Positions 5,074 through 53,554 of a stretch of 64,000 bases of DNA are shown here, piece after piece (positions within the stretch are counted from its first letter, which is position 1; each line of letters begins with the position of its first letter). The notes under the pieces are model-generated. The model saw nothing but the letters and a program-made list of their open reading frames with translations. It was not told the DNA's origin and did no database searches. The stretch covers positions 18,655 to 82,654 of the forward strand of contig JACRMS010000032.1 of NCBI GenBank assembly GCA_016214845.1, given 5' to 3'. The translations under genes and the position numbers were made by a program. The stretch is from Nitrospirota bacterium. GTDB lineage: Bacteria; Nitrospirota; Thermodesulfovibrionia; UBA6902.

Positions 5074-6004
5074 CTATTCCGTCCTGGTAATGGTCTTTTG
5101 AGGGGTGGATCTTTTTGATCATTGAGGTATCGAAAATTTCTTCATCTGAGAGCTCGCGGCTTATATATCCAAGCCTCTTCAATACCTTCACAAATGCCAT
5201 TGTGGAAGAAATATATCCTTTGGTAATGGAAGCGCAATACTTTGGCGAGATATTCAAGGTGTCCAGAACAAAATCCGCGTCTACGATCCCGGTATAATCT
5301 GAAATTATCTTTGCAGCCTCCCGCGGCCTGTTTCTAAAAAATGCCGTTGCTTCTTCGTGCAGCTTAAGAAAGCGTTCAATGGTTTCGCGGTGTCCATTCA
5401 GAAAATTGTCCTCAACAAGGATGCCGTAGCTTGGATTGTCAGGCCAGAGTTTAGACGGGGGACAAAGTATCTTCCCTCCTGCAAAGCGGCCAAGCGCGAC
5501 GGCAAGAGCTGGCGTGCCGACTGCCGCTGCTACCTGCCCCTTGTGCATCGCATCTATGATCAGGTCAGACCACCGGAAGTTTACAATGTCAATTTCACTT
5601 TTTAAATTAAATCTCTCAAGACATTCAGTGATAATGACATCATGAATGGAACCTTTTCCCGGCACCCCTATCTTGTGGCCGCGAAACTGTGTTAACACTT
5701 CGGCGAGATCATCAGTTTCCGGGGACCCCTTGCATTCAGCCCCTCCGATGATGACCGTGCCTTCAACATGCCCGCCTGCAATGCATTTGAACTTCACTCC
5801 TTTATCCATGCCGATAATTGCCGGAGGAAGTCCGATATAAGCCAGATCGATCTCTCCTCTTTGAAATGCATCAACTATCGCAGGTCCGGTGCCAAACAGC
5901 CTCCATTGGACATCGGCACTGATCTCCCGATCAATGTTGCCTTGGGCTATTAAAAGTATCGAGGTGTGATAAAAGGTGGAGAGATGGGCTATCCTTAGCG
6001 GCAT
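5066..6004 (-). CDS. NMT1/THI5-like (SsuA/TauA-type periplasmic-binding-protein fold) protein without signal peptide
   Basis: 312 aa. Its N-terminal IAHLSTFYHTSILLIAQ...GEIDLAYIGLPPAIIG is NMT1/SsuA-like. No signal sequence. The 3' end overlaps the convergent AhpD-like gene by 8 nt. Confidence 0.5.
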   Translation of the reverse strand: MPLRIAHLSTFYHTSILLIAQGNIDREISADVQWRLFGTGPAIVDAFQRGEIDLAYIGLPPAIIGMDKGVKFKCIAGGHVEGTVIIGGAECKGSPETDDLAEVLTQFRGHKIGVPGKGSIHDVIITECLERFNLKSEIDIVNFRWSDLIIDAMHKGQVAAAVGTPALAVALGRFAGGKILCPPSKLWPDNPSYGILVEDNFLNGHRETIERFLKLHEEATAFFRNRPREAAKIISDYTGIVDADFVLDTLNISPKYCASITKGYISSTMAFVKVLKRLGYISRELSDEEIFDTSMIKKIHPSKDHYQDGIAI

Positions 6005-6135
6005 TTATTTTTTCCTGTCTGTGCGATTAGACATTAAAAATAGCGATCAGCAATTAGCTGTCAGCTATAAGCTTTACATAAAATCATTCCTAAATAAAAA
6101 GCTTATCGCTTAATGCTAAGAGCCAACAGTTTTTT

Positions 6136-6210
<75 letters not shown>

Positions 6211-6333
6211 ATTTGTTGGGAATATTGTATATTGCATGGATTGCTTAATGCAAGAAGGCGAATTGTATTCATCCTTTAACTCTATGCCCTCAGCCCCCTG
6301 CTTTTAAGCGCTGTAACTTGTGTATAATTAGGC

Positions 6334-6747
6334 ATGTTCCCTGTAAGCCCGGAAAAAGAAAAGTCTCTCAAGGCCAAACTCGACAACCTTGGCATTCATG
6401 AAAAGGACATCGAGGAATCGTTCATCCGCTCAGGCGGGCACGGCGGGCAGAATGTCAACAAGGTCGCAACCTGTGTTTATCTAAAACACATCCCAACCGG
6501 TGTTGAGGTCAAATGCCAGAAGGCGCGCACTCAGGGAATGAACCGATATTATGCCCGTGTGCTGCTTTTTGAAAAAGTAGAACGCCTGATAAAAGGCAAG
6601 GAGAGCGAGGAAGAACAACGGATCGAAAAGATCAGGCGGCAGAAACGCAAACGCTCAAAGCGCGCAAAGGAAAAGATGCTTGAAGGGAAACACCTGCAAT
6701 CCATAAAAAAAGAAAAACGTTCTTATCACCCTTCCCGTGAAGAGTAA
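6334..6747 (+). CDS. arfB: Alternative ribosome-rescue factor ArfB (peptidyl-tRNA hydrolase, RF-1 GGQ domain)
   Basis: 137 aa, [15 protein letters not shown] motif, Lys/Arg-rich C-terminal tail. Confidence 0.8.
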
Positions 6748-6762
6748 AATTAAGGCCTGAAT

Positions 6763-7782
6763 TCACTTCGATGTTTCTTCGTAGAACTCCCTTTTCGGCT
6801 GGCCACTCATCAGCCCGAATCTTTTGTAAAGTGATTGCGCGAAAAGAAAGTCCAGGTGTGCGATTGAATCAGGGCGATTGCCAAAGACCTTTTCCCAGAC
6901 ATCCCACCGTTCCATGCAAAGATATACAAGATTGTCTTGTGAAATTTTCCCCCTCAGCGCGCTGTAAATGTGCTTGTACATCTTTACCCGCAGCGGTTTT
7001 ACATACCGCATCTTTGCGTCATCACCCAGTACCATCTCCGCGCAGGTCAGGCGGTTGTCCGGGTAGTTGTTTTCCATCTTCTTTTTCATCTCAGGGTTGA
7101 AGCGGAGGCTGCCGATGGATATCCACGCGACCCTCTCAGGCGATACCGAATCAAAGACCCGGTCCACAAGCCCCGAATATCCTTCTTCCCATCCCTTGTG
7201 AAAGATCATCGGGTCGAAATGCAGGCCGATCAAATAGCCTGCCTTTGAAACCTTGCGCATGGCGTGAAGCCGGTCTTCAAGAGACGCGGTCCTGTGCTCT
7301 TCTGTGTTGATGACGTGATCAGTATTCAGGGACCACGAGACAACCGTCCTTTCATTGTGAGAGATATTTAGTATCGAATCAACGTTGTCTGACTTCGTCT
7401 TTAGTTCAAGAACGGCATTTCCCATTGTGGAAAATTCGCGGATAAGTCTTGCGGCCTGTCCCGTCTCTCCTTCCAGCGCAAGACTGTCGCCAAGCTCCCA
7501 AGTGCCGATGCGGAACAGCCTCTGCGGCTCATTTGCGGTTTTGCTTTTAACCTCTTCCATCAACGCGTCAATATCGTCCACGATCTTTGTCGCGCCGTCG
7601 TTCATATAGTTTTGAAGGAAGCAGTATGAACATTCAAACGGGCAGTTGTGGACGGACTTCAATACATGCACATAACAGCAGAGGTATTTTCTGTTGAACG
7701 TAGCGCACGTGCCCATTGCCTCGCCGTGTTTCGGAATGGGCTTAACTTCCTTTTTCCCGTCTTTATAGTTCAAGGTATTCAT
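6763..7782 (-). CDS. Radical SAM protein of the spore-photoproduct-lyase (SplB) / DNA-repair photolyase-like family
   Basis: 339 aa, CxxxCxxC radical SAM cluster motif (CPFECSYC), SplB-like length and composition. Confidence 0.65.
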   Translation of the reverse strand: MNTLNYKDGKKEVKPIPKHGEAMGTCATFNRKYLCCYVHVLKSVHNCPFECSYCFLQNYMNDGATKIVDDIDALMEEVKSKTANEPQRLFRIGTWELGDSLALEGETGQAARLIREFSTMGNAVLELKTKSDNVDSILNISHNERTVVSWSLNTDHVINTEEHRTASLEDRLHAMRKVSKAGYLIGLHFDPMIFHKGWEEGYSGLVDRVFDSVSPERVAWISIGSLRFNPEMKKKMENNYPDNRLTCAEMVLGDDAKMRYVKPLRVKMYKHIYSALRGKISQDNLVYLCMERWDVWEKVFGNRPDSIAHLDFLFAQSLYKRFGLMSGQPKREFYEETSK

Positions 7783-7794
7783 GGTTGTTTAAGA

Positions 7795-7880
7795 ACCCCC
7801 TCTCCCTTACCCTCTCCCGCAAGGGGCGAGGGAACTAACTTATCTCCCCTCCCTTGACGGGAGGGGATTAAGGGGAGGGT
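7795..7880. repeat. C/G-tract mirror repeats forming GC hairpins and a canonical G-quadruplex motif on the minus (sense) strand, about 16 nt upstream of the SplB-like start codon
   Basis: Plus strand cccctctcccttaccctctccc...ctcccctccc ttgac gggaggggat. The minus-strand reading GGGAGAGGGTAAGGGAGAGGGGG gives G3N3G3N3G3N3G3+. There is a 10-bp perfect hairpin TCCCCTCCC/GGGAGGGGA. Confidence 0.5.
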
Positions 7881-7890
7881 GTTAATATTC

Positions 7891-8862
7891 TCAAAGCTCA
7901 TCCAGTATTTCCTCCACCGCCTTCTTCGTTTCAGTCGAGTTCAAAGTACTTAGCAGCGCTGCCAGCTTTTTGAAATCCTGCACATGGACAACGATGTCCA
8001 CATTTTTATTCTCCAGCGTCCTGTCCCAGTTAATAGATACAGCCTGCGGAAGCTTAAGGCCCTCAACCGTCTTCTGCATCCTCGCGTTTGTCTCGGAAAG
8101 GGTGGGGAACCGTTTTGTATAAATAAGCTGACGCAGCCTTTCAGTCCTGTCGCGGGGGCTTAGTGAAGACCTGATTATCTCCTGGACATCAGGCCCATCG
8201 AGAAAATCATTGATGGTCTTGTTTTGCATCCTGAGGTGATCTTTTAAATTTGAGGCGATCTCATCAAGTGTAGAGGCGGTCAATTGCAGTATCGGCTTCC
8301 ACGCCATCAACTGTAAGAGTATGTCCATAGGATAGGAAGTTAAATTGAGTATCTGTTTCAGGGAGTATTTTTTTTCGTGGCAGAAGGATTTTAATTCTGC
8401 AGGCAAATCGTTCATGCGCTCGCAGTCCCGCAGGAATTCACTGTACGGTTTAAAACTGAATTGAATGCAGAGGAAATTCAGTATCCACGATTCAGGCGCT
8501 TTGAGATAAAGTGCGAAACAGATAAAGCGGACTTTGTTCATAATGCTTTGCTCAATCTCAAGCCTCTTATCACAGAGGATTAAGGTAATGATGTCTGTAA
8601 CCGGCGTAGCCTCCGGCAGGACGATTGCGCTGACTGTTTGGATCTGGTTCTGCCTTGCGAAATGAATCCGCTTCCTTCCGTCAATCAGATGAAGTTTTCC
8701 GTCTTTATCTCTGTAAAGAATAACCGGATGAAGTATGCCAAGATTTTTCAAAGAATCTTCAAGAGAGGTTTCAATGCTGTTTGATTCAACGAGGAGATCT
8801 TTCAGCGAAAAACGGCTTTGCTCAACGAGGACGTCTTTGACATTTATATTTTGGACTGACAT
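7891..8862 (-). CDS. ParB N-terminal (ParB/Srx nuclease-like) domain protein, otherwise uncharacterised
   Basis: 323 aa. LGILHPVILYRDKDGKLHLIDGRKRIHFARQ matches the ParB N-terminal GxxRxxA box. The remaining ~230 aa are unassigned. Confidence 0.5.
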   Translation of the reverse strand: MSVQNINVKDVLVEQSRFSLKDLLVESNSIETSLEDSLKNLGILHPVILYRDKDGKLHLIDGRKRIHFARQNQIQTVSAIVLPEATPVTDIITLILCDKRLEIEQSIMNKVRFICFALYLKAPESWILNFLCIQFSFKPYSEFLRDCERMNDLPAELKSFCHEKKYSLKQILNLTSYPMDILLQLMAWKPILQLTASTLDEIASNLKDHLRMQNKTINDFLDGPDVQEIIRSSLSPRDRTERLRQLIYTKRFPTLSETNARMQKTVEGLKLPQAVSINWDRTLENKNVDIVVHVQDFKKLAALLSTLNSTETKKAVEEILDEL

Positions 8863-8870
8863 GAAATATT

Positions 8871-10340
8871 TTACACCATCTCTTTCCGATATTTACTCAT
8901 GGAAGCGAGCATCTCCCTGCACTTCTCCGCCTCTTGAGTTTTCTTCCTCTTCTCATATCCCTTGGTAAGTATATTCAGCTTCCTTGTAAGGACGTCGATG
9001 ATCTTTTCTCTGAATTCGGGATGCGGCTCGTTCTCTAATAGTTTCATTAATGATCTGGCCCTGAACATATCCATTGCGGGATACTTCCGCGAAAGCTGGT
9101 CCTCGTGACCGCCGTATTTAATGACGGACAAACCGGGCTCAAGCCCGACCGGGTGATGCCTTGATATCTTTAACCACAAGTCATAATCCTCACACACTAA
9201 AAGGCCCTCATCAAATAATCCGTAACGTTCAAGCAGGGATCTCTTTACAAGAACTCCTGATGGCGAGACAAGACATCTCTCAAGGGATTGCTCCCATATC
9301 CAGCCTTCCGGCTTTTTGTGATGCATGCAGGGATTAACACGCACGCCGTTTCTTATCCACATTTCCTCCGATTGCAGGATTTGATAAAAAGGACATCTCG
9401 TGAGATATGCGATCTGGTTTTTCAGTTTGTCTTTTTCCCAGCAGTCATCGGAATCCAGAAAAGCAATCCACTCTGTCTTTGCGTATTTGACACCTTCATT
9501 TCTTGCCCTTGACGGCCCTGAGTTTTCGGACAGGAAAACGCAGGTCAGCTTATCGCCGTAGCTTTTCAGTATCTCCTGCGTGCCGTCGGTGGAACAGTCG
9601 TCAACAACGATGATCTCTTCAGGTTGCAGTGATTGAGACAGTATGGAATCAATTGCACGCCTGATTGTATGCGGCCGGTTGTGGACAGGAATAATAACGG
9701 TCACTCTGTGATCGTCCCTGATAAAGCTGAAAAGCTTTTTTACCTCTCCGGCGAAAAGTTCAACGTTCCTGTTGAAATCGGAGAAGGTGTTATGGTCTGA
9801 ATGGTCAGTGCTGAATTTCAGGCAGTGGAAGCTGATCTTAGCATCATGAAATACCTTTGCCTGCGCATAACATTCCATATCGATCGCCTCGTGTCCTTTC
9901 AATGATTCGGGCAGATCATTTATTGAAGGCTTCATGACGCTGATCAGCGAGCGGACATTTATCATCTTTTCAGGATGCGGAACAGGAAGCCTCGTGTCTA
10001 ACTTCAGCATGTCGCCTTCTTCATTTGCGACATGCTCAGGAATTAGCCATTTGCCAAGCGGGTATTTTTTATTTATTACACCGCATGTGCCGATGTTAAA
10101 GACGAACAGTGGATTCAGGTTATCACGCACATAGCGCGCGGCCTCTTCGCTTGCCTTATAACCTGCGCCGGTTATTACAACCATAATTCCCGATGAACTG
10201 CGCTGATCAAGCGCCCCTGCCTTAAGGGCTGTAAGAGTGTGTACGGGAATGCCGCGAGATGCAAGCCAGTCTTTCGGGACCTCTTTTTTCAGGGCAGCGG
10301 TGATGATGAGTTTGAAAGATTGGGATGTCAGTTTTGTCAT
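8871..10340 (-). CDS. Fusion protein: N-terminal PNP_UDP_1 (MTA/SAH-nucleosidase-like phosphorylase) domain + C-terminal family-2 glycosyltransferase domain
   Basis: N-terminal ITGAGYKASEEAA...IDMECYA nucleosidase-like. C-terminal VIIPVHNRPHTIRRAIDSILSQS...LDSDD (GT2 DxD). The ATG at 10340 overlaps the bpt stop (ATGA); an alternative ATG is at 10364. Confidence 0.6.
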   Translation of the reverse strand: MTKLTSQSFKLIITAALKKEVPKDWLASRGIPVHTLTALKAGALDQRSSSGIMVVITGAGYKASEEAARYVRDNLNPLFVFNIGTCGVINKKYPLGKWLIPEHVANEEGDMLKLDTRLPVPHPEKMINVRSLISVMKPSINDLPESLKGHEAIDMECYAQAKVFHDAKISFHCLKFSTDHSDHNTFSDFNRNVELFAGEVKKLFSFIRDDHRVTVIIPVHNRPHTIRRAIDSILSQSLQPEEIIVVDDCSTDGTQEILKSYGDKLTCVFLSENSGPSRARNEGVKYAKTEWIAFLDSDDCWEKDKLKNQIAYLTRCPFYQILQSEEMWIRNGVRVNPCMHHKKPEGWIWEQSLERCLVSPSGVLVKRSLLERYGLFDEGLLVCEDYDLWLKISRHHPVGLEPGLSVIKYGGHEDQLSRKYPAMDMFRARSLMKLLENEPHPEFREKIIDVLTRKLNILTKGYEKRKKTQEAEKCREMLASMSKYRKEMV

Positions 10341-11074
10341 TGTCCCTTTAAGTGGTCCTGCCATTGATCATTCCTGTAGATCTGGTTGGGACGGAAAAAC
10401 TTTTTATAGCGCATCTTCGGATTTTCTTCTATATAAAATCCAAGATAGAGATATTTCTTCCCCATTTCCCGCGCGAGGTAAATTTCCTGGATAATGCTGA
10501 ACACGCCGGGCCTCCTGTCAAGATGATCAGTGTCATAGTAAAAGTAATTGGACGAAAGCGAATCCTCTGCCTCATCAACGATCCCTACAGCTATAAGCTT
10601 TTCCCCGCAGTAATAATCCATTTCGATTATGTGATCGTAACCTGAATGCATTGCAAGAAGAAAAGGCAGGGGACTGCGTGTTTCTTCTTTCTTGTCATCC
10701 TTATGCTTCACGGCTATGTATTTATCGTAAAGCGCGACCTTCTCCGGGGTGATGGACGGTCTTGGTTGGACTTCCACACGGATGTCTTTATTTTTACCGA
10801 GGGTCCTTTTCTGGCTTCTGCTCAATTGAAATTTTTCAGCTTCAATATGCAGGGGGATGCAGGCTGAACATGCCTTGCAGACATTGCGGTAAAATACGCT
10901 CCCGATACGCCTGTACCCTTTTGACAGAAGCTCGTGAAAGTTATGGCTGCGCTTCTTTGCGGGGATGAAATATTCTGTTGAAGATATTCTTCCGTCATCG
11001 AAGTACGGGCAGGGGGAATCCTCTGTGAATAAAATCTCGGTGTCTGTCCTTTGCTTTAACTGGTTCTCCGTCAC
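10337..11074 (-). CDS. bpt: Arginyl-tRNA--protein transferase-family enzyme (bacterial Bpt, aspartate/glutamate leucyltransferase)
   Basis: 245 aa. ATE_N and ATE_C signatures (DSPCPYFDDG, CKACSACIPLHIE). Confidence 0.7.
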   Translation of the reverse strand: MTENQLKQRTDTEILFTEDSPCPYFDDGRISSTEYFIPAKKRSHNFHELLSKGYRRIGSVFYRNVCKACSACIPLHIEAEKFQLSRSQKRTLGKNKDIRVEVQPRPSITPEKVALYDKYIAVKHKDDKKEETRSPLPFLLAMHSGYDHIIEMDYYCGEKLIAVGIVDEAEDSLSSNYFYYDTDHLDRRPGVFSIIQEIYLAREMGKKYLYLGFYIEENPKMRYKKFFRPNQIYRNDQWQDHLKGQ

Positions 11075-11226
11075 ATGTTTATTTTACAGCAATCCGGCGT
11101 CTTGAAGTCTTGTCCTGCAATCAATATAATATAACCGGCTCTTGGGAAGAAATTTCAAATCTTGTCTTTAAAAACTTTTCACCCCCATTCGGGGGAACAC
11201 ATATCTTTTGAGGGGAGAATATTGTT

Positions 11227-12849
11227 ATGAGGGGACATCGTATCACTTTAGTTGCGGCAGTATGTTTTTTTCTTCATCTTTCAACATCAACAATCCACGC
11301 AGGTATCGAAGAGAAAATCTGGAAGGATGTAAGCAGCGGTATCAGCGATCCGGGACTGCAAAGAGCGGCGATTGGTCGTGACAATGCGGACACCGTTTAC
11401 GTCAGCTCTGCCCATGCTGTTTATAAAACTTCAAATGGCGGGGAAAAATGGGTGGAGATTTTCAGAAGCACCGTAAACATTGTAAATGCCGTTGCCGTAG
11501 ATCCAGGTAATTCAATGACTGTATTTATTGGAACTCAGGAAGGGCTGTATAAAAGCAAAAACGGCGGGAAGAGTTGGGAAAGGGTATTCAGGGGGGTCGC
11601 GGAGCTTGAGAATTTTGTTCTTTCAATCGCTGTTCATCCTGAACTTTCCGGTGTTGTATATATCGGCACAGACTCCGGGATCTACCGGACGGGTAATTTT
11701 GGAAATGAGTGGACAAAGCTGCGGAGCCTGCCTGAAGAATCCGCGGCGGCTTCTATTATTATTGACCCCTCCGGGCCGGGAAAAATTTACGCTGCAACAG
11801 ACAAAGGGCTTTTTAAAAGTATCAACAACGGTATCGATTGGCAGAGAATCCTTGTGAAGATCTCATCTGAAAATGAGGAGGTGCAGTCAATTGTTGATGA
11901 GGCGATAGAGGCCGATGAACTTAAAGGCGAGACAAAGATAAGAAGCATTGCCGTTGATACATCCGACAATAAAATAATTTACGCCGGCACAACAGCAGGC
12001 CTTTTAATCACCACAGATGAAGGCGCAACATGGAATGCGGCAGGCAGGTCGGGGTTGACCAGCCGTGATATACGCTATCTCGCAGTCAGTTCAAAAGACC
12101 CTGACAGCATTTATGCGGCAACTGGCAGGGGAGTATTCGCGTATTCAAAAACATCCAAAAGCTGGAACGAGCTTTATAGCGGTATGATTTCTCAAGACGC
12201 GCGTTATCTCGCGGTCGCTTCAAATCCCCAGGACCATAATATAACTCTGTGGGCGGTGACAAAAAATGGAGTGTATAAAACATCAGCGAAACAGGATGCC
12301 GGCCCCGCGGGCGATGGGGTGAAGACCGAAAATGTCCTTTCTAAATTTGCGTATGAACCCTCAATAGAGGAGATCAGGGAGGCTGCCATAATGTATGCCG
12401 AGGTGCAACCAGATAAAATAAATGAATGGAGAAAGGCGGCGGCGGCCAGGGCTTTGCTGCCGCAATTAAGGTTTGAATACCAGAAGAATATCGATTGGCA
12501 GAAGGAAGACCATTTCTACGATAGCGACCATAAAATAGATGATTTTACCAGCACTGATGACAAGGCATGGTCTGTCTCTGTCACATGGGAGCTTGGTGAC
12601 CTTGTATGGAATGATTCCCAGACCTCAATCGATGCAAGGTCAAGGCTTATGGTCCAGTTAAGGGATGACGTCCTGAATGAGGTCACGAGGCTTTATTTTG
12701 AGAGAAGGAAATTGCAGATAGCCATGCTCCTTTCGCCTACCGCAGAGATCAATGAAAAGATCGAAAAAGAACTCCGCCTGCAAGAACTGACAGCGGACAT
12801 TGACGCCATGACAGGCTCATATCTTTCAAAAAGACTCAATAAACAGTAA
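11227..12849 (+). CDS. Secreted BNR/Ycf48-like repeat protein with uncharacterised ~170-aa C-terminal domain
   Basis: Signal peptide; six SxxxGxxW-type BNR repeats (TSNGGEKW, SKNGGKSW, TGNFGNEW, SINNGIDW, TTDEGATW, SKTSKSW). Confidence 0.6.
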   Translation: MRGHRITLVAAVCFFLHLSTSTIHAGIEEKIWKDVSSGISDPGLQRAAIGRDNADTVYVSSAHAVYKTSNGGEKWVEIFRSTVNIVNAVAVDPGNSMTVFIGTQEGLYKSKNGGKSWERVFRGVAELENFVLSIAVHPELSGVVYIGTDSGIYRTGNFGNEWTKLRSLPEESAAASIIIDPSGPGKIYAATDKGLFKSINNGIDWQRILVKISSENEEVQSIVDEAIEADELKGETKIRSIAVDTSDNKIIYAGTTAGLLITTDEGATWNAAGRSGLTSRDIRYLAVSSKDPDSIYAATGRGVFAYSKTSKSWNELYSGMISQDARYLAVASNPQDHNITLWAVTKNGVYKTSAKQDAGPAGDGVKTENVLSKFAYEPSIEEIREAAIMYAEVQPDKINEWRKAAAARALLPQLRFEYQKNIDWQKEDHFYDSDHKIDDFTSTDDKAWSVSVTWELGDLVWNDSQTSIDARSRLMVQLRDDVLNEVTRLYFERRKLQIAMLLSPTAEINEKIEKELRLQELTADIDAMTGSYLSKRLNKQ

Positions 12850-14636: not shown

Positions 14637-14714
14637 TGGCGTCCCCAAAGGGATTCGAACCCTTGTTACCGCCGTGAAAGGGCGATGTCCTAGGCCGGGC
14701 TAGACGATGGGGAC
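14637..14714 (-). tRNA. tRNA-Glu (anticodon UUC)
   Basis: Reverse complement GTCCCCATCGTCTAGCCCGGCCTAGGACATCGCCCTTTCACGGCGGTAACAAGGGTTCGAATCCCTTTGGGGACGCCA. Anticodon loop CTTTCAC; CCA encoded. Confidence 0.8.
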
Positions 14715-14716
14715 AC

Positions 14717-14792
14717 TGGTGAGCCGCGTTGGATTCGAACCAACGACCCACGCCTTAAAAGGGCGTTGCTCTACCTACTGAGCTAGCGGCCC
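14717..14792 (-). tRNA. tRNA-Lys (anticodon UUU)
   Basis: Reverse complement GGGCCGCTAGCTCAGTAGGTAGAGCAACGCCCTTTTAAGGCGTGGGTCGTTGGTTCGAATCCAACGCGGCTCACCA. Anticodon loop CTTTTAA; CCA encoded. Confidence 0.85.
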
Positions 14793-17958: not shown

Positions 17959-19044
17959 TTACCCGTTCTTCTTTTGAAATTCCTGCATAAATGTTATCAA
18001 GGCGTCAACGCCCTCTTCCGGCATGGCGTTGTAAATGCTGGCCCTCATGCCGCCGACGCTGCGATGGCCTTTAAGCGCTACTAATCCGGCGGCCTTTGCC
18101 CCTTCAATAAATTTATTGTCGAGTTCAGCATTCTTCAGGGTAAACGGTATGTTCATCCATGAGCGGTATTGCGGATCGACCGGATTTTTATAAAACCCGG
18201 ACTTATCAATAGCGGCATAAAGCTTATCAGCCTTGCGCTTATTTATCTCCGCCATCTCCGTCAGGCCGCCCTTTCTCTTTATCCATTCAAACACCAGCCC
18301 TGCGATATACCATGCGTAAGTAGGCGGCGTGTTGTACATGGAATCATTTTCCGCGTGTGTCTTGTAAGTGAACATAACAGGCGTTCCGGGAAGCGGATCG
18401 CCGATCAGGTCTTCTCTGATGACCACGATCGTCAAACCGGCGGGACCTATATTCTTCTGAGCTCCAGCATAGATGAGGCCGAATTTAGACACATCGATCG
18501 GACGTGAGAGGACCGTTGAAGACATGTCGGCAACAATCGGGACCTTGCCCGCGTCCGGGATGGAATCGAACTCCACTCCGCCGATGGTTTCATTTGGCGT
18601 GTAATGAACATATGCGGCATCCGGATTGAGTTTCCAATCAGATCTCGGCGGCACGGTTGTGAAATTTTTGGCCTCGCTCGTTGCAACGACATTCACTGTG
18701 CAGTAACGCTTGGCCTCTGAGATCGCCTTCTTTGACCATTGCCCTGTATTGATATAATCAGCGGTCTTTTTATCACGCAATAAATTCATGGGTATCATCG
18801 CAAACTGGGTTGACGCACCGCCTTGAAGGAAAAGGACTTTGTAATTATTGGGAATTCCCATTATTTCCCTCAGGTCTGTTTCAGCCTTTTTGGCGATGGA
18901 GATATATTCCTTGCCCCTGTGGCTCATCTCCATTACGGACATGCCGCTTCCGCGCCAGTCAAGCATCTCGGAGGCGGCCTGCTCCAAAACTTCCTGCGGC
19001 AGCATTGCCGGCCCTGCGCTGAAATTAAATACGCGTGACATCAT
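17959..19044 (-). CDS. serC: Phosphoserine aminotransferase
   Basis: The FNFSAGPAMLP N-terminus is typical of SerC. The ATG at 19044 has AAGGGG upstream; the ORF-track start is 19071. Confidence 0.85.
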   Translation of the reverse strand: MMSRVFNFSAGPAMLPQEVLEQAASEMLDWRGSGMSVMEMSHRGKEYISIAKKAETDLREIMGIPNNYKVLFLQGGASTQFAMIPMNLLRDKKTADYINTGQWSKKAISEAKRYCTVNVVATSEAKNFTTVPPRSDWKLNPDAAYVHYTPNETIGGVEFDSIPDAGKVPIVADMSSTVLSRPIDVSKFGLIYAGAQKNIGPAGLTIVVIREDLIGDPLPGTPVMFTYKTHAENDSMYNTPPTYAWYIAGLVFEWIKRKGGLTEMAEINKRKADKLYAAIDKSGFYKNPVDPQYRSWMNIPFTLKNAELDNKFIEGAKAAGLVALKGHRSVGGMRASIYNAMPEEGVDALITFMQEFQKKNG

Positions 19045-19782
19045 GCGGCCCCTTTTTCCGACACTGTACAAATCCTGTTGAACGATGCCGGATAATTGTT
19101 AGTAACTTCGACGTCATTGTTTATTGACACCATTTTTTTTGAAACCATCTGTGATAAATATATTTTCATCTTATCTTCTTTAGTTTAGATTTTATGAGCT
19201 GTATACAATAAGGGAACATTGACGATTCCGGCATGTGATTTAACTAATCTTATCGACTTTGAAGGGTATCATTTCGACCGTGTTTTGTCAAGTTGGTTAC
19301 CTCTGGAAACCTCAACAAATTATCAACACCTGTTTTCCCTTTTCTTTTATGTCCGGTTGCCTCCTAATCAACAATGCCAACAACCTTTCTACTCTTTTTT
19401 ATTTTAAATATATAAAGATAAAAAGAATAAGACAGAGAGAAAACTATATTTAGAAAAATTAAAATATCAAAAAAACTCCTTGCTCAATGAAGAAAGAATT
19501 ATATATACTCTTTCAGACAAAGCTGCGAGCAGACAAAAGACCCAGGAACTACTGTAACTTTTTGTAAGCCCGTTTTATTTTCTAAAGCAGAATAAAACAA
19601 GGTAAGGTATAGATTTAAAATAGCTGCCATAACTTTCTAACCCTTAACAACGAAAGCTAAAATCAGTATTGAGAGCAGTCTCGCTTGTCAGTGCTGTGTA
19701 TTTTATCCATTAAGCTTCTCATTGAATTCATTTTACAGCCGTGTGCTGCGTGTAAGTCTAATAAAGAAATAAAGATATTTCC

Positions 19783-19868: not shown

Positions 19869-22442
19869 ATGGACAAGCCTGTTCAAAAAAAACCGCCAGA
19901 TGACGGTGGCCCGTGTGAAGATGTTCGCAGCGGATTAGGTCTTAATACGCTATGGCGTGCCTATGTGGAAAATCTCATTTGTGTGCAGGGAAGAGGCATC
20001 CCCGATATTGCCACAATGAACGACCGTTACATGGCGTTTGCCTACACTGTGCGGGACCGCATGATGAACAGGGCCGCCCACGCGCTTCATACGTACAAGG
20101 AAAAAAATTTTAAGGTCGTCTGTTATCTCTCAGTGGAATTTCTCATGGGCCCGCATCTCGGCAATAATCTTATCAACCTCGGCATATACAGCGAGGTGCG
20201 CGACGCCCTTAAGGCAGCCGGGTTCGACATCGATCAGCTCCTTGAGCAGGAAGAAGAGCCCGGCCTCGGCAACGGAGGACTCGGACGTCTTGCGGCGTGT
20301 TACCTTGATTCGATGGCAACACTTGAAATCCCGTGCTTTGGATACGGAATAAGGTATGAATTCGGTATCTTCGACCAGGAGCTGCGGGACGGGTGGCAGG
20401 TTGAAAAGACGGACAAGTGGCTCAGGTTCGGCAATCCCTGGGAGATCGCGCGCCCGGAAGTTGTTATAGATGTTAAGTTAGGAGGCCGCACCGAGAGTTA
20501 TTTGGACGAACAGGGACGCTATTGCGTGCGTTGGGCGCCACACCGCATTGTAAGAGGCACTGCCTATGACACACCGGTGATAGGCTACAGGGTCGGGGCC
20601 TGCAATACTCTTCGTCTGTGGAAGGCCGAGGCAACCGAGTCTTTTGATCTTCAGGCTTTTAGCCACGGCGATTATTATCGCGCTGTTGAGGACAAGGTTG
20701 TGTCAGAGAATGTTACCAAGGTCCTTTATCCGAATGACGAGCAGCTTCAGGGCAAGCACCTCCGGCTTGAACAACAGTACTTCTTCGTCTCCTGTTCTAT
20801 GCAGGACATTATTCGAATTCATCTCGGAAGGGGTAAAAGCCTCGACACGCTCCATGAAACCTACGCAGTCCAGCTCAACGATACCCATCCGTCCATAGCT
20901 GTTGCCGAGCTTATGCGCCTGCTCATAGACGAGCGCCTGATGGATTGGGAAAAGGCATGGCACATTACCGTGAATACCTTTGCATATACAAACCACACCC
21001 TTCTGCCAGAGGCGCTGGAAAAGTGGTCCCTGCAATTATTCGGGGAACTTCTGCCGAGGCATCTTGAGATCATCTTCGAGATCAACTGGAGATTTCTTGA
21101 GGATGTGAAAAGGCGGTATCCGGGTGACGAAGACCGTGTGAGGCGGATGTCGATTATCGACGAAACAGGCGGCCGCTTTATAAGGATGGCGAACCTTGCA
21201 TGTGTCGGCAGTCATGCCATAAACGGTGTGGCAGCTCTGCACACCGGGCTTTTGAAAAGCACAGTCCTGCGCGACTTTTACGAATTCAGCCCGGAGAAAT
21301 TCAGCAACAAGACCAACGGCGTCACACCGCGCCGCTGGATGGTCCTGAGCAACCCCGGACTGACTGAACTTATCACCGGTAAGATCGGCCCCGGATGGAT
21401 CAAGGATTTAAATGAACTCAGGAGGATCGAGGAATTTGCGGATGACAAAGAGTTCCGCGATGAGTGGCGCAGCGTGAAATTTGAAAACAAAAAAAGACTT
21501 GCGGCACGGATAAAAGAGGTGACAGGTATAATTGTAAATCCAGATTCGCTCTTCGACATGCAGGTCAAGCGCATCCATGAATACAAGCGCCAGCATCTCA
21601 ATGTCCTTTACATCATCTCACTCTATATTCAAATCAAGCTTAACCCGAATGTTGACATCGTACCCCGGACATTCATCTTTGGAGGCAAGGCCGCCCCAGG
21701 CTATTTTATGGCGAAGCTGATGATCAAGCTCATCACCTCTGTCGCTGAGGTGATCAATAACGATCCTGATGTGCGCGGACGGCTGAAGGTGGTGTTCTTT
21801 CCCGACTTCAATGTAAAGAACGGGCAGAGGATATACCCTGCCGCCGACCTGTCGGAGCAGATCTCGACAGCCGGGACAGAGGCGTCAGGGACCGGGAACA
21901 TGAAGTTCGCAATGAACGGCGCGCTGACCATCGGCACGCTTGACGGCGCTAACGTAGAGATACGGGAAGAGGTCGGCGCTGAGAATTTCTTTCTCTTCGG
22001 GCTCACGGCAAAACAGGTACAGGAGGCAAAATCGCAGGGGTACAATCCCTCTGCGTTCTATTATTCAAACCAGCAGTTGAGAGAAGTAATGGAGCTCATA
22101 CGGGGCGGGCGCTTTTCTCCTGACAATACCGACCTGTTCAGGCCGCTCCTGGACACCCTCATGTATCACGACGAATACATGCTCTTTGCGGATTTTCAAT
22201 CCTACATCGACTGTCATGCAAGAGTGGAAGCGGCATACCGTGACCGTGAAAACTGGACGCGGATGTCCATTCTGAATACGGCGCGCATGGGAAAGTTTTC
22301 CTCCGACCGCGCGATAAAAGAATACTGCCGTGACATCTGGAAGGCGGAGCCTGTGGTTGTTGACATGTCAGGAAATGTGGAGTGGACGATACAGGAAAGG
22401 GCCGCAAGCATGTCAAAGCGAGGAGTAGCAAGTAGACAGTAG
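19869..22442 (+). CDS. glgP: Glycogen/alpha-glucan phosphorylase (GT35)
   Basis: 857 aa. PLP-site EASGTGNMKFAMNGALTIGTLDGANVEI and other GT35 hallmarks throughout. Confidence 0.9.
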   Translation: MDKPVQKKPPDDGGPCEDVRSGLGLNTLWRAYVENLICVQGRGIPDIATMNDRYMAFAYTVRDRMMNRAAHALHTYKEKNFKVVCYLSVEFLMGPHLGNNLINLGIYSEVRDALKAAGFDIDQLLEQEEEPGLGNGGLGRLAACYLDSMATLEIPCFGYGIRYEFGIFDQELRDGWQVEKTDKWLRFGNPWEIARPEVVIDVKLGGRTESYLDEQGRYCVRWAPHRIVRGTAYDTPVIGYRVGACNTLRLWKAEATESFDLQAFSHGDYYRAVEDKVVSENVTKVLYPNDEQLQGKHLRLEQQYFFVSCSMQDIIRIHLGRGKSLDTLHETYAVQLNDTHPSIAVAELMRLLIDERLMDWEKAWHITVNTFAYTNHTLLPEALEKWSLQLFGELLPRHLEIIFEINWRFLEDVKRRYPGDEDRVRRMSIIDETGGRFIRMANLACVGSHAINGVAALHTGLLKSTVLRDFYEFSPEKFSNKTNGVTPRRWMVLSNPGLTELITGKIGPGWIKDLNELRRIEEFADDKEFRDEWRSVKFENKKRLAARIKEVTGIIVNPDSLFDMQVKRIHEYKRQHLNVLYIISLYIQIKLNPNVDIVPRTFIFGGKAAPGYFMAKLMIKLITSVAEVINNDPDVRGRLKVVFFPDFNVKNGQRIYPAADLSEQISTAGTEASGTGNMKFAMNGALTIGTLDGANVEIREEVGAENFFLFGLTAKQVQEAKSQGYNPSAFYYSNQQLREVMELIRGGRFSPDNTDLFRPLLDTLMYHDEYMLFADFQSYIDCHARVEAAYRDRENWTRMSILNTARMGKFSSDRAIKEYCRDIWKAEPVVVDMSGNVEWTIQERAASMSKRGVASRQ

Positions 22443-53478: not shown

Positions 53479-53554
53479 GGGCAGTTAGCTCAGTCGGTAG
53501 AGCAAGGGACTGAAAATCCCTGTGTCCGCAGTTCGATTCTGCGACTGCCCACCA
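53479..53554 (+). tRNA. tRNA-Phe (anticodon GAA)
   Basis: GGGCAGTTAGCTCAGTCGGTAGAGCAAGGGACTGAAAATCCCTGTGTCCGCAGTTCGATTCTGCGACTGCCCACCA; CCA encoded. Confidence 0.85.

What the first reader, a model, noticed from the sequence alone, without database searches (positions are those of the whole stretch)
6763..11074. Unusual minus-strand gene run: bpt - PNP/GT2 fusion - ParB-like - (G4 leader) - SplB-like radical SAM
Four co-oriented genes are joined by start/stop overlaps (ATGA between bpt and the fusion gene; a 9-nt gap before the ParB-like gene). An aminoacyl-tRNA-dependent transferase sits with a nucleosidase/glycosyltransferase fusion, a ParB/Srx-fold protein (usually DNA-binding or nuclease-like) and a DNA-repair-type radical SAM. 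I do not recognise this combination as a known pathway. It could be a nucleic-acid or nucleotide modification or salvage module, or a chance juxtaposition. The region is AT-richer than the neighbouring core genes.
Basis: partly seen in the sequence, partly recalled or inferred. Interest (0 to 1): 0.55.

Follow-up and report, generated by a model that had tools for sequence, protein, structure and literature searches.

The report
ParB-like partner for SPL-like enzyme
Three of the four genes form an uncharacterised operon that recurs in several bacterial phyla: a DNA-binding ParB-like protein is always paired with a relative of the radical enzyme that repairs UV-damaged spore DNA, often with a nucleosidase/glycosyltransferase fusion, which suggests an undescribed DNA repair or DNA modification system.

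Summary
The gene run is real. On the minus strand lie bpt (10337-11074), an MTAN-like nucleosidase/GT2 fusion (8871-10340), a ParB-like protein (7891-8862) and an SPL-family radical SAM enzyme (6763-7782).

Comparison with about 115 related loci splits the run in two.
- **bpt is a bystander.** It is adjacent in only 3 of 57 dereplicated loci.
- **The ParB-like/SPL-like pair is the core.** The ParB-like gene sits directly upstream of the SPL-like gene in 47-48 of 52 SPL-centred metagenome loci and in 29 of 31 genome loci. The median gap is 2 nt. Hosts include Nitrospirota, a Deltaproteobacteria MAG, Thiotrichaceae, Bdellovibrionota and marine MAGs.
- **Two accessories recur.** The nucleosidase/GT2 fusion is upstream in 23 of 57 loci. 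An aldo-keto reductase, absent from this window, is downstream in 20 of 57.

The "G4 leader" is a strain-private palindrome, not a conserved element.

My best reading (confidence 0.4) is a DNA-directed radical SAM repair or modification system with a ParB-type, nucleotide-gated DNA-binding partner. The substrate is unknown. I found no paper, defence-system model, phage or plasmid carrying this pair.

The parts
6763..7782 (-). SPL-family radical SAM enzyme (339 aa), one half of the conserved core pair. It has the CxxxCxxC motif at C47/C51/C54 and four extra invariant cysteines (C26, C35, C36, C289). E96 replaces SPL Cys141 and F55 replaces Tyr99. The segment K257/R259/Y260/K262/R265 is invariant and basic.
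7783..7890 (-). Spacer holding a roughly 95-nt imperfect palindrome with an embedded G4-type motif. It is a strain-private insertion, not a conserved part of the operon.
   Evidence: The fold is -57.8 kcal/mol with z -4.9. There is one copy in the window. It is absent from L004 and from all fetched loci. There is no Rfam family. Contigs L001 and L002 of the same population end here. The usual spacing between the two genes is a median of 2 nt.
7891..8862 (-). ParB-like protein (323 aa), the other half of the core pair. It has a ParB/Srx N-domain with a DGRKR motif (family DGxxR) and a ParB-type helix-turn-helix region (K164/S167/K169/N173). Its C-terminal alpha/beta domain carries an invariant WDxxLE motif.
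8871..9725 (-). GT2 (GT-A) glycosyltransferase domain of the fusion protein (about aa 206-489). Invariant motifs are DSDD (296-299), CEDY (383-386) and GGHxDQLS (410-417).
   Evidence: Pfam Glycos_transf_2 scores 124.7 bits. No NCBIfam equivalog reaches its cutoff. PDB GT2 hits reach E 1e-14.
9726..10340 (-). MTA/SAH-nucleosidase-like domain of the fusion protein (about aa 1-205). The MTAN catalytic equivalents E20, M155-E156 and T178-D179 are invariant.
   Evidence: PNP_UDP_1 scores 33 bits. The domain profile hits solved MTANs at E 3e-12, with DME aligned to EME and TD aligned to SD. All 33 full-length upstream GT2 genes carry this domain.
10337..11074 (-). bpt (arginyl/leucyl-tRNA-protein transferase family, 245 aa). 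It overlaps the fusion gene by ATGA in this genome but is not part of the conserved module.
   Evidence: NF002346 scores 208 bits against a cutoff of 170, with ATE_N and ATE_C present. It is adjacent only in L004, L005, L006 and L011. It lies 5-9 kb away in L020 and L022 and is absent elsewhere. It appears in 3 of 57 dereplicated loci.

Best explanation
The run contains a conserved operon whose core is a ParB-like protein gene immediately followed by an SPL-family radical SAM enzyme gene. In this lineage an MTAN-like nucleosidase/GT2 fusion gene precedes the pair. bpt is only a neighbour.

I propose a DNA-directed radical SAM system, working as follows. All steps are inferred.

1. The ParB-like protein binds DNA through its ParB-type helix-turn-helix. 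It uses its ParB/Srx nucleotide-binding N-domain (DGxxR) as a switch to load on, scan, or hand DNA to the enzyme. DpdB does this for DpdA, and DndB/SspE do it in other DNA-modification systems.
2. The SPL-like enzyme flips out a target or damaged pyrimidine using the conserved basic hairpin that occupies the place of SPL's lesion-flipping hairpin. It cleaves SAM to the 5'-deoxyadenosyl radical. It then breaks (or makes) a C-C bond at the thymine methyl/C5-C6 position.
3. SPL's hydrogen-return residues Cys141 and Tyr99 are replaced by Glu and Phe, so SAM is probably consumed at each turnover. The four extra invariant cysteines probably hold a second metal or Fe-S site that handles an electron.
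4. The fused MTAN-like domain removes adenine from the resulting 5'-deoxyadenosine or adenosyl adduct. The frequently linked aldo-keto reductase reduces the ribose-derived aldehyde.

The acceptor of the GT2 domain is unresolved. Candidate substrates include methylene-bridged lesions (spore-photoproduct-like lesions, or thymine-purine and thymine-protein cross-links). The recurrent SprT-like protease neighbour fits that class.
For: Shown:
- The ParB-like gene is directly upstream of the SPL-like gene, on the same strand, in 29 of 31 genome loci. The same holds in 47-48 of 52 SPL-centred metagenome loci.
- The median gap between the two genes is 2 nt.
- The pairing persists at 25-30% ParB-like identity, and in loci where the pair stands alone among unrelated opposite-strand genes (L040, L035, P0313).
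- Hosts span Nitrospirota, a Deltaproteobacteria MAG, Thiotrichaceae/Parabeggiatoa and Bdellovibrionota.
- The invariant K257/R259/Y260/K262/R265 segment aligns with SplB K298/R300/Y301/K302/R305, the hairpin region.
- C141 is replaced by E96 and Y99 by F55.
- Seven cysteines are invariant across 86 sequences.
- The ParB-like model matches ParB N-domain plus HTH over 155-177 residues and carries a conserved DGxxR motif.
- The MTAN catalytic equivalents are invariant in the fusion, and its profile hits MTAN structures at E 3e-12.
- Recurrent neighbours are GT2 in 23 of 57 loci, AKR in 20 of 57 and SprT-like in 12 of 57.
- SprT-like stays with the SPL-like gene where that gene has moved away from ParB-like.

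From the literature:
- DpdB is a ParB-like ATPase (DGQQR motif) required with a DNA base-modifying enzyme (PMC10164549).
- COG1533 splB genes belong to SOS regulons in several phyla (PMC4951493, PMC8565304).
Against: - No experiment or direct computation shows DNA binding, nucleotide binding, or physical contact between the two proteins.
- GT2 has no role in a pure repair model.
- A dedicated 5'-deoxyadenosine nucleosidase for one radical SAM enzyme is unusual in genomes with many such enzymes.
- ParB's catalytic Glu-Asn is absent (LILCDKR replaces LIENxQR), so a CTPase cycle is unlikely.
- I found no conserved palindromic site upstream of the pair.
- The pI values of both proteins are unremarkable.
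- The cysteine-rich N-terminus and the hairpin are modelled with low confidence (pLDDT below 50).
- The hairpin register rests on one MAFFT alignment.
- The LexA-regulated splB genes in the literature may belong to a different SPL subfamily.
Confidence: 0.4

Rival explanations
1. This would be an adenosylation-type biosynthetic pathway that follows the logic of hopanoid side-chain synthesis (HpnH, HpnG, reduction, HpnI). The SPL-like enzyme adds the 5'-deoxyadenosyl radical to an sp2 carbon of its substrate. The MTAN-like domain removes adenine to leave a ribosyl group. The aldo-keto reductase opens and reduces that group to a polyol. The GT2 domain then glycosylates it. The substrate could be a DNA base, with the ParB-like protein as targeting factor, or a small molecule or lipid.
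For: - It gives every accessory enzyme a defined job.
- It explains why the nucleosidase and GT2 are fused in all 33 full-length cases.
- It explains why the fusion and the AKR follow the pair in deeply divergent lineages, with fusion identity of 37-40%.
- A pathway-specific nucleosidase fits an adenosylated intermediate better than generic 5'-dA clearance.
- Radical SAM plus PNP-family nucleosidase plus GT2 has a precedent in the hopanoid pathway (PMC13459092).
- The loss of SPL's H-atom return residues is compatible with stoichiometric use of SAM.
Against: - Many loci carry only the ParB-like/SPL-like pair, with no GT2, PNP or AKR within about 8 kb (L035, L040, L100, L109).
- No SPL-family member is known to perform radical addition.
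- HpnG and HpnB models score far below cutoff (26.9 against 187 and 30.9 against 379), and HpnH belongs to a different family.
- This window has no AKR.
Confidence: 0.25
2. The ParB-like protein would be only a transcription factor for the operon, in the manner of KorB, VirB or SbnI. The SPL-like enzyme, nucleosidase/GT2 and AKR would act on a non-DNA substrate such as a nucleotide, sugar or envelope component.
For: - The ParB-like protein evolves much faster than its neighbours: 25-64% identity against 45-79% for SPL-like. That rate is typical of regulators.
- GT2 and AKR are classic sugar or metabolite enzymes.
- In one marine lineage a mannose-1-phosphate guanylyltransferase-like gene and an LpxB-like gene precede the pair.
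Against: - The gene sits inside the operon and is tightly coupled to the SPL-like gene. Its order is fixed across phyla, which is unusual for a regulator.
- I found no conserved operator-like palindrome.
- The conserved DGxxR and WDxxLE motifs suggest more than DNA recognition.
- The enzyme's nearest relative acts on DNA and keeps the basic hairpin segment.
Confidence: 0.2
3. The radical SAM gene would be an ordinary spore photoproduct lyase orthologue repairing 5-thyminyl-5,6-dihydrothymine, and the remaining genes would be unrelated neighbours.
For: The Pfam SPL and TIGR04070 models are the best hits. The fold is SPL's. Public annotations call these proteins spore photoproduct lyase or DNA photolyase.
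Against: - TIGR04070 scores 120.6 bits against a cutoff of 400.
- Identity to true SplB is about 25-30%.
- The first roughly 85 residues of SPL are missing, and C141 and Y99 are replaced.
- Four extra cysteines are invariant.
- The partner is ParB-like, not SplA (one search shows splA-splB in Bacillus).
- The hosts are non-spore-formers, many from dark subsurface habitats.
- Conservation of the neighbours refutes the idea that they are unrelated.
Confidence: 0.07
4. The arrangement would be a chance juxtaposition, or a mobile or defence-island cassette.
For: The bpt adjacency is lineage-specific. The region is slightly AT-richer than the window. A private palindromic insertion is present.
Against: - The trio is conserved across phyla.
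- There is no PADLOC hit.
- There are no close homologues in 50,697 phage records, 72,556 plasmids or IMG/VR.
- The flanks are housekeeping genes such as guaA, tRNAs, his, pur and trmD-rplS.
Confidence: 0.03

Closest known systems
Spore photoproduct lyase SplB (splA-splB operon of Bacillus and Clostridium)
   Different: It scores far below the equivalog cutoff. The N-terminal roughly 85 residues are missing. Cys141 is replaced by Glu96 and Tyr99 by Phe55. Four extra cysteines are invariant. The partner is a 320-aa ParB-like protein rather than the 79-aa SplA. The hosts are non-spore-formers.
DpdA/DpdB (7-deazaguanine DNA modification) and DndB/SspE: ParB-like NTPases that partner DNA-modifying enzymes
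   Different: The motif is DGRKR/DGFxR rather than DGQQR/DGQHR. The protein carries a ParB-type HTH. There is no restriction or defence component and no PADLOC hit. The context is chromosomal housekeeping. The partner is a radical SAM enzyme.
Chromosomal ParB/Noc/KorB CTP-gated DNA clamps
   Same: It shares the N-domain fold, the GxxR phosphate-binding motif and the HTH region (Spo0J aligned over 155 residues).
   Different: The catalytic Glu-Asn of the ENxxR box is absent. No ParA partner and no parS-like site were found. The C-terminal domain is unrelated and carries WDxxLE. The gene is dedicated to one enzyme gene.
Hopanoid side-chain pathway HpnH (radical SAM), HpnG (PNP-family nucleosidase) and HpnI (GT2)
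   Same: The set of enzyme classes is the same: radical SAM, adenosine-type nucleosidase and GT2. A reduction step is also needed, and here an AKR is available for it.
   Different: No component reaches the Hpn family cutoffs. The radical SAM enzyme is SPL-type, not HpnH-type. The pathway has a ParB-like member. No hopanoid genes are known to be linked.
MTA/SAH nucleosidase (Pfs/MTAN) and aminodeoxyfutalosine nucleosidase MqnB
   Same: The domain profile hits solved MTANs at E 3e-12, and the catalytic Glu/Glu/Asp equivalents are invariant.
   Different: The domain is always fused to a GT2 domain, is highly diverged (Pfam 33 bits), and is encoded within this operon rather than as a housekeeping gene.

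Membership tests
Spore photoproduct lyase (SplB, TIGR04070 / PF20903) | Radical SAM CxxxCxxC cluster motif | tested here: met
   C47/C51/C54 are invariant in 86 sequences and align with SplB C91/C95/C98.
Spore photoproduct lyase (SplB, TIGR04070 / PF20903) | Score above the curated equivalog cutoff | tested here: not met
   TIGR04070 scores 120.6 bits against a cutoff of 400. TIGR03886 scores 49 against 437. The Pfam family cutoff is passed (103.5 against 27).
Spore photoproduct lyase (SplB, TIGR04070 / PF20903) | SPL three-dimensional fold | tested here: met
Spore photoproduct lyase (SplB, TIGR04070 / PF20903) | Hydrogen-atom return path Cys141 and Tyr99 (B. subtilis numbering; role taken from my knowledge of the SPL literature) | tested here: not met
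   C141 aligns with the invariant E96 and Y99 with the invariant F55. Y97 is kept as Y53.
Spore photoproduct lyase (SplB, TIGR04070 / PF20903) | Basic/aromatic beta-hairpin that flips out the lesion (Arg/Tyr at the tip) | tested here: inconclusive
   The invariant K257/R259/Y260/K262/R265 align with SplB K298/R300/Y301/K302/R305. The register is uncertain and the segment is modelled at pLDDT below 50.
Spore photoproduct lyase (SplB, TIGR04070 / PF20903) | Repairs 5-thyminyl-5,6-dihydrothymine in DNA | not testable with these tools
   This needs an anaerobic enzyme assay.
ParB/Noc/KorB CTP-gated DNA-binding proteins | ParB/Srx N-terminal fold with GxxR phosphate-binding motif | tested here: met
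ParB/Noc/KorB CTP-gated DNA-binding proteins | Catalytic Glu-Asn of the ENxxR box (CTP hydrolysis) | tested here: not met
   LILCDKR aligns with LIENIQR, so the Glu-Asn pair is missing.
ParB/Noc/KorB CTP-gated DNA-binding proteins | Helix-turn-helix DNA-binding domain after the N-domain | tested here: met
ParB/Noc/KorB CTP-gated DNA-binding proteins | Works with a ParA ATPase and parS sites | tested here: not met
   No ParA-type family appears among the +/-3 neighbours of 57 loci. No recurrent palindrome lies upstream.
DpdB/DndB/SspE-type ParB-like NTPases of DNA-modification systems | DGQ(Q/H)R NTPase motif | tested here: inconclusive
   D61 is conserved at 86%, G62 at 97% and R65 at 94%. The middle residues are R/F and K rather than Q-Q/H. 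The motif definition is from PMC10164549.
DpdB/DndB/SspE-type ParB-like NTPases of DNA-modification systems | Part of a restriction-modification or defence gene cluster | tested here: not met
   There is no PADLOC hit. The flanks are housekeeping genes. No phage, plasmid or IMG/VR copies were found.
MTA/SAH nucleosidase (MTAN) | Homology to MTAN with catalytic Glu12, Glu174 and Asp197 (E. coli numbering, from my knowledge) | tested here: met
   The domain profile hits 3EEI, 1JYS and others at E 3e-12, with DME aligned to EME and TD aligned to SD. E20, E156 and D179 are invariant in 23 fusions. The match of E20 to Glu12 is by inspection.
Glycosyltransferase family 2 (GT-A) | PF00535 domain with DxD motif | tested here: met
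   PF00535 scores 124.7 bits against a cutoff of 23.3. D296-S-D298-D299 are invariant. No specific equivalog is reached: TuaG 110 against 400, MftF 82 against 280.
Hopanoid side-chain enzymes HpnG/HpnH/HpnI | Scores above the Hpn family cutoffs | tested here: not met
   HpnG TIGR03468 scores 26.9 against 187. HpnB scores 30.9 against 379. The radical SAM enzyme is SPL-type.
Bpt / arginyl-tRNA-protein transferase | ATE_N + ATE_C domains and a score above the equivalog cutoff | tested here: met
   NF002346 scores 208.3 bits against a cutoff of 170. ATE_C scores 106 bits and ATE_N 61 bits. Membership of the conserved module was tested and not met (3 of 57 loci).

The most novel reading that the evidence does not exclude
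The operon would be an oxygen-independent pathway that hypermodifies a pyrimidine in genomic DNA. The ParB-like nucleotide-gated protein brings the SPL-like radical SAM enzyme to DNA. The enzyme functionalises the thymine methyl or C5-C6 position, either by attaching a 5'-deoxyadenosyl unit or by oxidising the methyl group through its extra cluster. The fused nucleosidase removes adenine, the aldo-keto reductase reduces the sugar, and the GT2 domain glycosylates the product. The result would be a glycosylated, polyol-bearing base, a bacterial and anaerobic counterpart of base J made with hopanoid-like side-chain chemistry.
Probability: 0.13. Interest if true: 0.9.

Novelty: new variant of a known kind. 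Interest (0 to 1): 0.6.

Why it matters
SPL is the textbook radical SAM DNA-repair enzyme, yet the function of its many relatives in non-spore-formers is an old open question.

- **A defined subfamily.** This work identifies one large subfamily, present in at least 82 of the fetched loci. It has a distinct active site (Glu and Phe replace the Cys/Tyr relay) and four extra invariant cysteines.
- **A near-obligate partner.** That partner belongs to a ParB-like family with 807 sequence clusters at E<=1e-10. It gives the question an experimental handle, and the components are small and probably soluble.
- **If it acts on DNA.** The pair would be the first ParB-type adaptor for a radical SAM DNA enzyme. 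It would also add a repair or modification route suited to anoxic habitats.
- **If the accessories build an adduct.** The chemistry would be new, whether for DNA or for a metabolite.
- **A practical point.** bpt and the G-rich palindrome should not be read as parts of the system.

Tried and rejected
- Homologue search with the divergent Deltaproteobacterial ParB-like protein (L035) returned only itself.
- An alignment of 89 distant ParB-likes (A2) was too diverse for the metagenome scan. I scanned with the SPL-like alignment A3 instead.
- PADLOC gave no defence-system match for any of six proteins.
- Phage and plasmid collections (tblastn) held only distant true SplB or SPL-family genes at 25-30% identity. 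The IMG/VR scan found nothing.
- Rfam on 6000-12000 found only a tRNA and sub-threshold noise over the spacer.
- The promoter and terminator scan found no excess over shuffles, and the palindrome is not terminator-like.
- A search for a recurrent palindromic operator within 300 nt upstream of the ParB-like genes found none. The pI values of both proteins are uninformative.
- The low-complexity acidic protein of about 255 aa that lies between the SPL-like gene and the AKR in 14 loci has no family match.
- Neighbours in distant lineages (SNF2 helicase, RNR, ClpB, histidine kinases, exonuclease III-like) show no consistent extra partner.
The afdb50 fold library was unavailable.
- Four literature searches for the gene combination found nothing relevant.
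- I considered and rejected four readings: a canonical SPL orthologue, a ParABS-type partition function, a defence island, and a functional link to bpt. Reasons are in the membership tests and the rival explanations.

Full report
**1. What is in the window**

Between 6763 and 11074 four ORFs run on the minus strand.

- bpt (10337-11074) has ATE_N and ATE_C domains. It passes the NCBIfam arginyltransferase model NF002346 (208 bits, cutoff 170).
- The next gene (8871-10340) encodes a PNP_UDP_1 domain fused to a family-2 glycosyltransferase. Its start overlaps the bpt stop as ATGA. The alignment of 23 homologues supports this start rather than the upstream ATG at 10364.
- After 8 nt comes a 323-aa protein (7891-8862) with a sub-threshold ParB_N match (21 bits).
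- After 108 nt comes a 339-aa radical SAM protein of the SPL family (6763-7782; Pfam 103.5 bits).

The region has 46.8% GC against 49.8% for the window, which is the 14th percentile and not anomalous. Exact matches identify the organism as a Nitrospirota (Thermodesulfovibrionia-type) MAG.

**2. The spacer**

The "G4 leader" does contain GGGAGAGGGTAAGGGAGAGGGGG on the mRNA strand. However, these G-runs pair with C-runs upstream in a roughly 95-nt imperfect palindrome (RNA MFE -57.8 kcal/mol, z -4.9).

- It occurs once in the window.
- It matches no Rfam family.
- It is missing from the 89%-identical relative L004, which has an unrelated 208-nt spacer.
- It is missing from all 121 fetched loci.
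- Two short-read contigs from the same population stop exactly there.

In 54 dereplicated loci the ParB-like to SPL-like gap has a median of 2 nt, and 41 gaps are 30 nt or less. The element is therefore a private insertion, not a conserved leader.

**3. Neighbourhood conservation, starting from the ParB-like gene**

A scan of one genome per GTDB species returned 32 loci. They come from Nitrospirota/Thermodesulfovibrionia MAGs, two MAGs labelled Deferribacteres, and one Deltaproteobacteria MAG.

- By tblastn and ORF clustering, the SPL-like gene follows the ParB-like gene in 29 of the 31 loci that extend downstream.
- The fusion gene lies upstream in 25 of the 32 loci.
- bpt is adjacent only in L004, L005, L006 and L011.
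- In one of the two exceptions (the SURF_11 genome) the SPL-like gene lies on another contig. There it is still tail-to-tail with the SprT-like gene that accompanies it elsewhere.

A profile search of 1.84 billion representative proteins shows that the ParB-like family is large. It has 807 clusters at E<=1e-10, mostly about 320 aa long and 18-45% identical to the window protein.

I looked up five distant representatives.

- P0313 has ParB-like and SPL-like genes with a 1-nt junction.
- L040 has the pair alone between opposite-strand housekeeping genes.
- L041 has ParB-like next to a convergent SPL-AKR unit.
- L038 has GT2-ParB-like at 33% ParB-like identity.
- L039 has GT2-ParB-like-SPL at 25% ParB-like identity.

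**4. Neighbourhood conservation, starting from the SPL-like gene**

A metagenome scan with an SPL-like alignment gave 80 loci.

- Of the 52 loci with at least 900 nt upstream, 47 have a ParB-like gene immediately upstream on the same strand. One further locus (L042) has it too, but my ORF picker had missed it.
- A Pfam census covered the three genes on each side of the pair in 57 loci, dereplicated at 80% SPL identity.

| Neighbour | Position | Loci (of 57) |
|---|---|---|
| GT2 | upstream | 23 |
| Aldo-keto reductase | downstream | 20 |
| SprT-like | downstream | 12 |
| PIN-PhoH | downstream | 6 |
| HAD hydrolase | upstream | 6 |
| bpt | upstream | 3 |

- Every one of the 33 full-length upstream GT2 genes carries the nucleosidase domain.
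- Names attached to identical proteins place carriers in Candidatus Parabeggiatoa/Thiotrichaceae, Bdellovibrionota and marine Tara MAGs.
- There are no close homologues in the phage, plasmid or IMG/VR collections, and no PADLOC model matches.

The system is chromosomal and widespread. Its core is the pair, and the fusion and the AKR are frequent accessories. This window lacks the AKR.

**5. The SPL-like enzyme**

- TIGR04070 scores 120.6 bits against a cutoff of 400.
- The first roughly 85 residues of SPL have no counterpart.
- Alignment to a real Bacillus SplB, fetched as L122, puts the invariant Glu96 at Cys141 and the invariant Phe55 at Tyr99. Tyr97 is kept as Y53. From my knowledge of the SPL literature, Cys141 and Tyr99 return the hydrogen atom and allow SAM to be regenerated.
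- Seven cysteines are invariant in 86 sequences: the three cluster ligands plus C26, C35, C36 and C289. Bacillus SplB has only four cysteines in all.

A strictly conserved basic segment (K257, R259, Y260, K262, R265) aligns with SplB K298/R300/Y301/K302/R305. I recall this region as the lesion-flipping hairpin. The register is uncertain and the segment is poorly modelled.

**6. The ParB-like protein**

The AF2 model is confident (pLDDT 87).

- A family profile hits ParB and Noc structures at E 4e-6 to 2e-4.
- Across 118 diverse members the conserved positions are P46, D61-G62-x-x-R65, K164/S167/K169 in the HTH-like helix, E201, P253 and W279-D280-x-x-L283-E284.
- The Glu-Asn pair of ParB's hydrolysis box is absent.
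- No ParA gene is linked.

The protein therefore has ParB architecture without being a partition protein. The nearest functional precedent is DpdB. DpdB is a ParB-like ATPase with a DGQQR motif. DpdA needs it to insert 7-deazaguanine into DNA, and DpdA-DNA stimulates its ATPase activity (PMC10164549).

**7. The fusion protein**

In 23 fusions that are 37-89% identical, the invariant residues include E20, D154-M155-E156 and T178-D179. In the GT2 half they include DSDD (296-299), CEDY (383-386) and GGHxDQLS. A profile of the N-domain hits solved MTA/SAH and aminodeoxyfutalosine nucleosidases at E 3e-12. In those alignments DME matches MTAN's EME and TD matches SD. The nucleosidase is therefore probably active on a 5'-substituted adenosine. 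The GT2 domain reaches no equivalog cutoff, and its acceptor is unknown.

**8. Interpretation**

The conserved facts are these:

- an SPL-fold enzyme with an altered radical-return path and a probable extra metal site;
- a near-obligate ParB-architecture partner;
- frequent adenosine nucleosidase/GT2 and AKR accessories;
- a recurrent SprT-like neighbour.

I rank a DNA-directed radical SAM repair or modification system first (0.4). The reasons are that the enzyme's only close relative acts on DNA and keeps the basic hairpin segment, that the partner has a DNA-binding architecture with a precedent as adaptor for a DNA-modifying enzyme, and that COG1533 splB genes are SOS-regulated in several phyla (PMC4951493, PMC8565304).

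The main rival (0.25) is an adenosylation pathway with hopanoid-like logic: radical SAM addition, then nucleosidase, reduction and GT2 (PMC13459092). It explains the accessories better. It does not explain the many loci that carry only the pair.

A regulator-plus-metabolite reading (0.2) fits the fast evolution of the ParB-like protein but not its fixed, tightly coupled position. A canonical SPL (0.07) and chance (0.03) are disfavoured by the tests above.

None of the mechanistic steps has been shown. All are inferred from homology and gene context.

**9. Limits**

- ORFs in the fetched loci were called with a simple longest-ORF rule, so starts and some gap values are approximate.
- The metagenome sample was selected by two SPL-like peptide patterns and is not an unbiased census.
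- Taxon labels of MAG proteins are those of the depositors.
- Residue roles in SPL, MTAN and ParB are from my knowledge of those families. The positions themselves were mapped here.

Noticed in passing
window 7790-7885: A roughly 95-nt imperfect palindrome with an embedded G4-type motif. It is private to this genome, and short-read contigs of the same population (L001, L002) break at it. It may be a REP/MITE-like element or simply hard to assemble. It has one copy in the window and none in 121 loci.
   Followed up: partly
L012:13152-13826 (-) and equivalents in 12 of 57 loci; L036:9018-9692: A 224-aa SprT-like zinc protease gene lies tail-to-tail with the SPL-like (or AKR) gene in Nitrospirota. 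It stays beside the SPL-like gene even where that gene has moved away from the ParB-like gene. This hints at a link to repair of DNA-protein cross-links.
   Followed up: partly
L012:12131-13180 (+), L041:1632-2540 (-) and 18 other dereplicated loci: An aldo-keto reductase directly downstream of the SPL-like gene is a frequent fourth member of the operon in several lineages. It is absent from this 64-kb window.
   Followed up: yes
window 6334-6747 (+): A 137-aa protein with only an RF-1 domain (ArfB/ICT1-like, below the ArfB cutoff) is convergent with the SPL-like gene. The gene ends are 15 nt apart. It is conserved at 95% in L004.
   Followed up: no
window 6136-6210 (-), 14637-14792 (-), 53479-53554 (+): Four tRNA genes are present: tRNA-Gly(ccc), tRNA-Glu(ttc), tRNA-Lys(ttt) and tRNA-Phe(gaa). 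The first lies about 550 nt from the SPL-like gene end.
   Followed up: no
window 19001-19500: GC drops sharply to 34% in the intergenic stretch between the divergent ORFs 17959-19071 (-) and 19869-22442 (+).
   Followed up: no
L072:9740-10519 and 13 other marine or estuarine loci: A low-complexity acidic protein of about 255 aa, with no family match, is inserted between the SPL-like gene and the AKR in one marine lineage. The same loci carry class I ribonucleotide reductase genes just downstream, and mannose-1-phosphate guanylyltransferase-like and LpxB-like genes upstream.
   Followed up: partly
L012:5717-6973 (+) and five other Nitrospirota loci: A TIGR00375-family PHP-domain protein (I believe endonuclease Q-like) recurs a few genes upstream of the fusion gene. 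UvrD follows the ParB-like gene in the two genomes where the SPL-like gene has moved (L008, L033).
   Followed up: no
L018:13174-13527 (-) and about 9 Nitrospirota loci: A 117-aa cysteine-rich protein (several CxxC pairs) with no Pfam or NCBIfam match lies between the SPL/AKR genes and the SprT-like gene.
   Followed up: no
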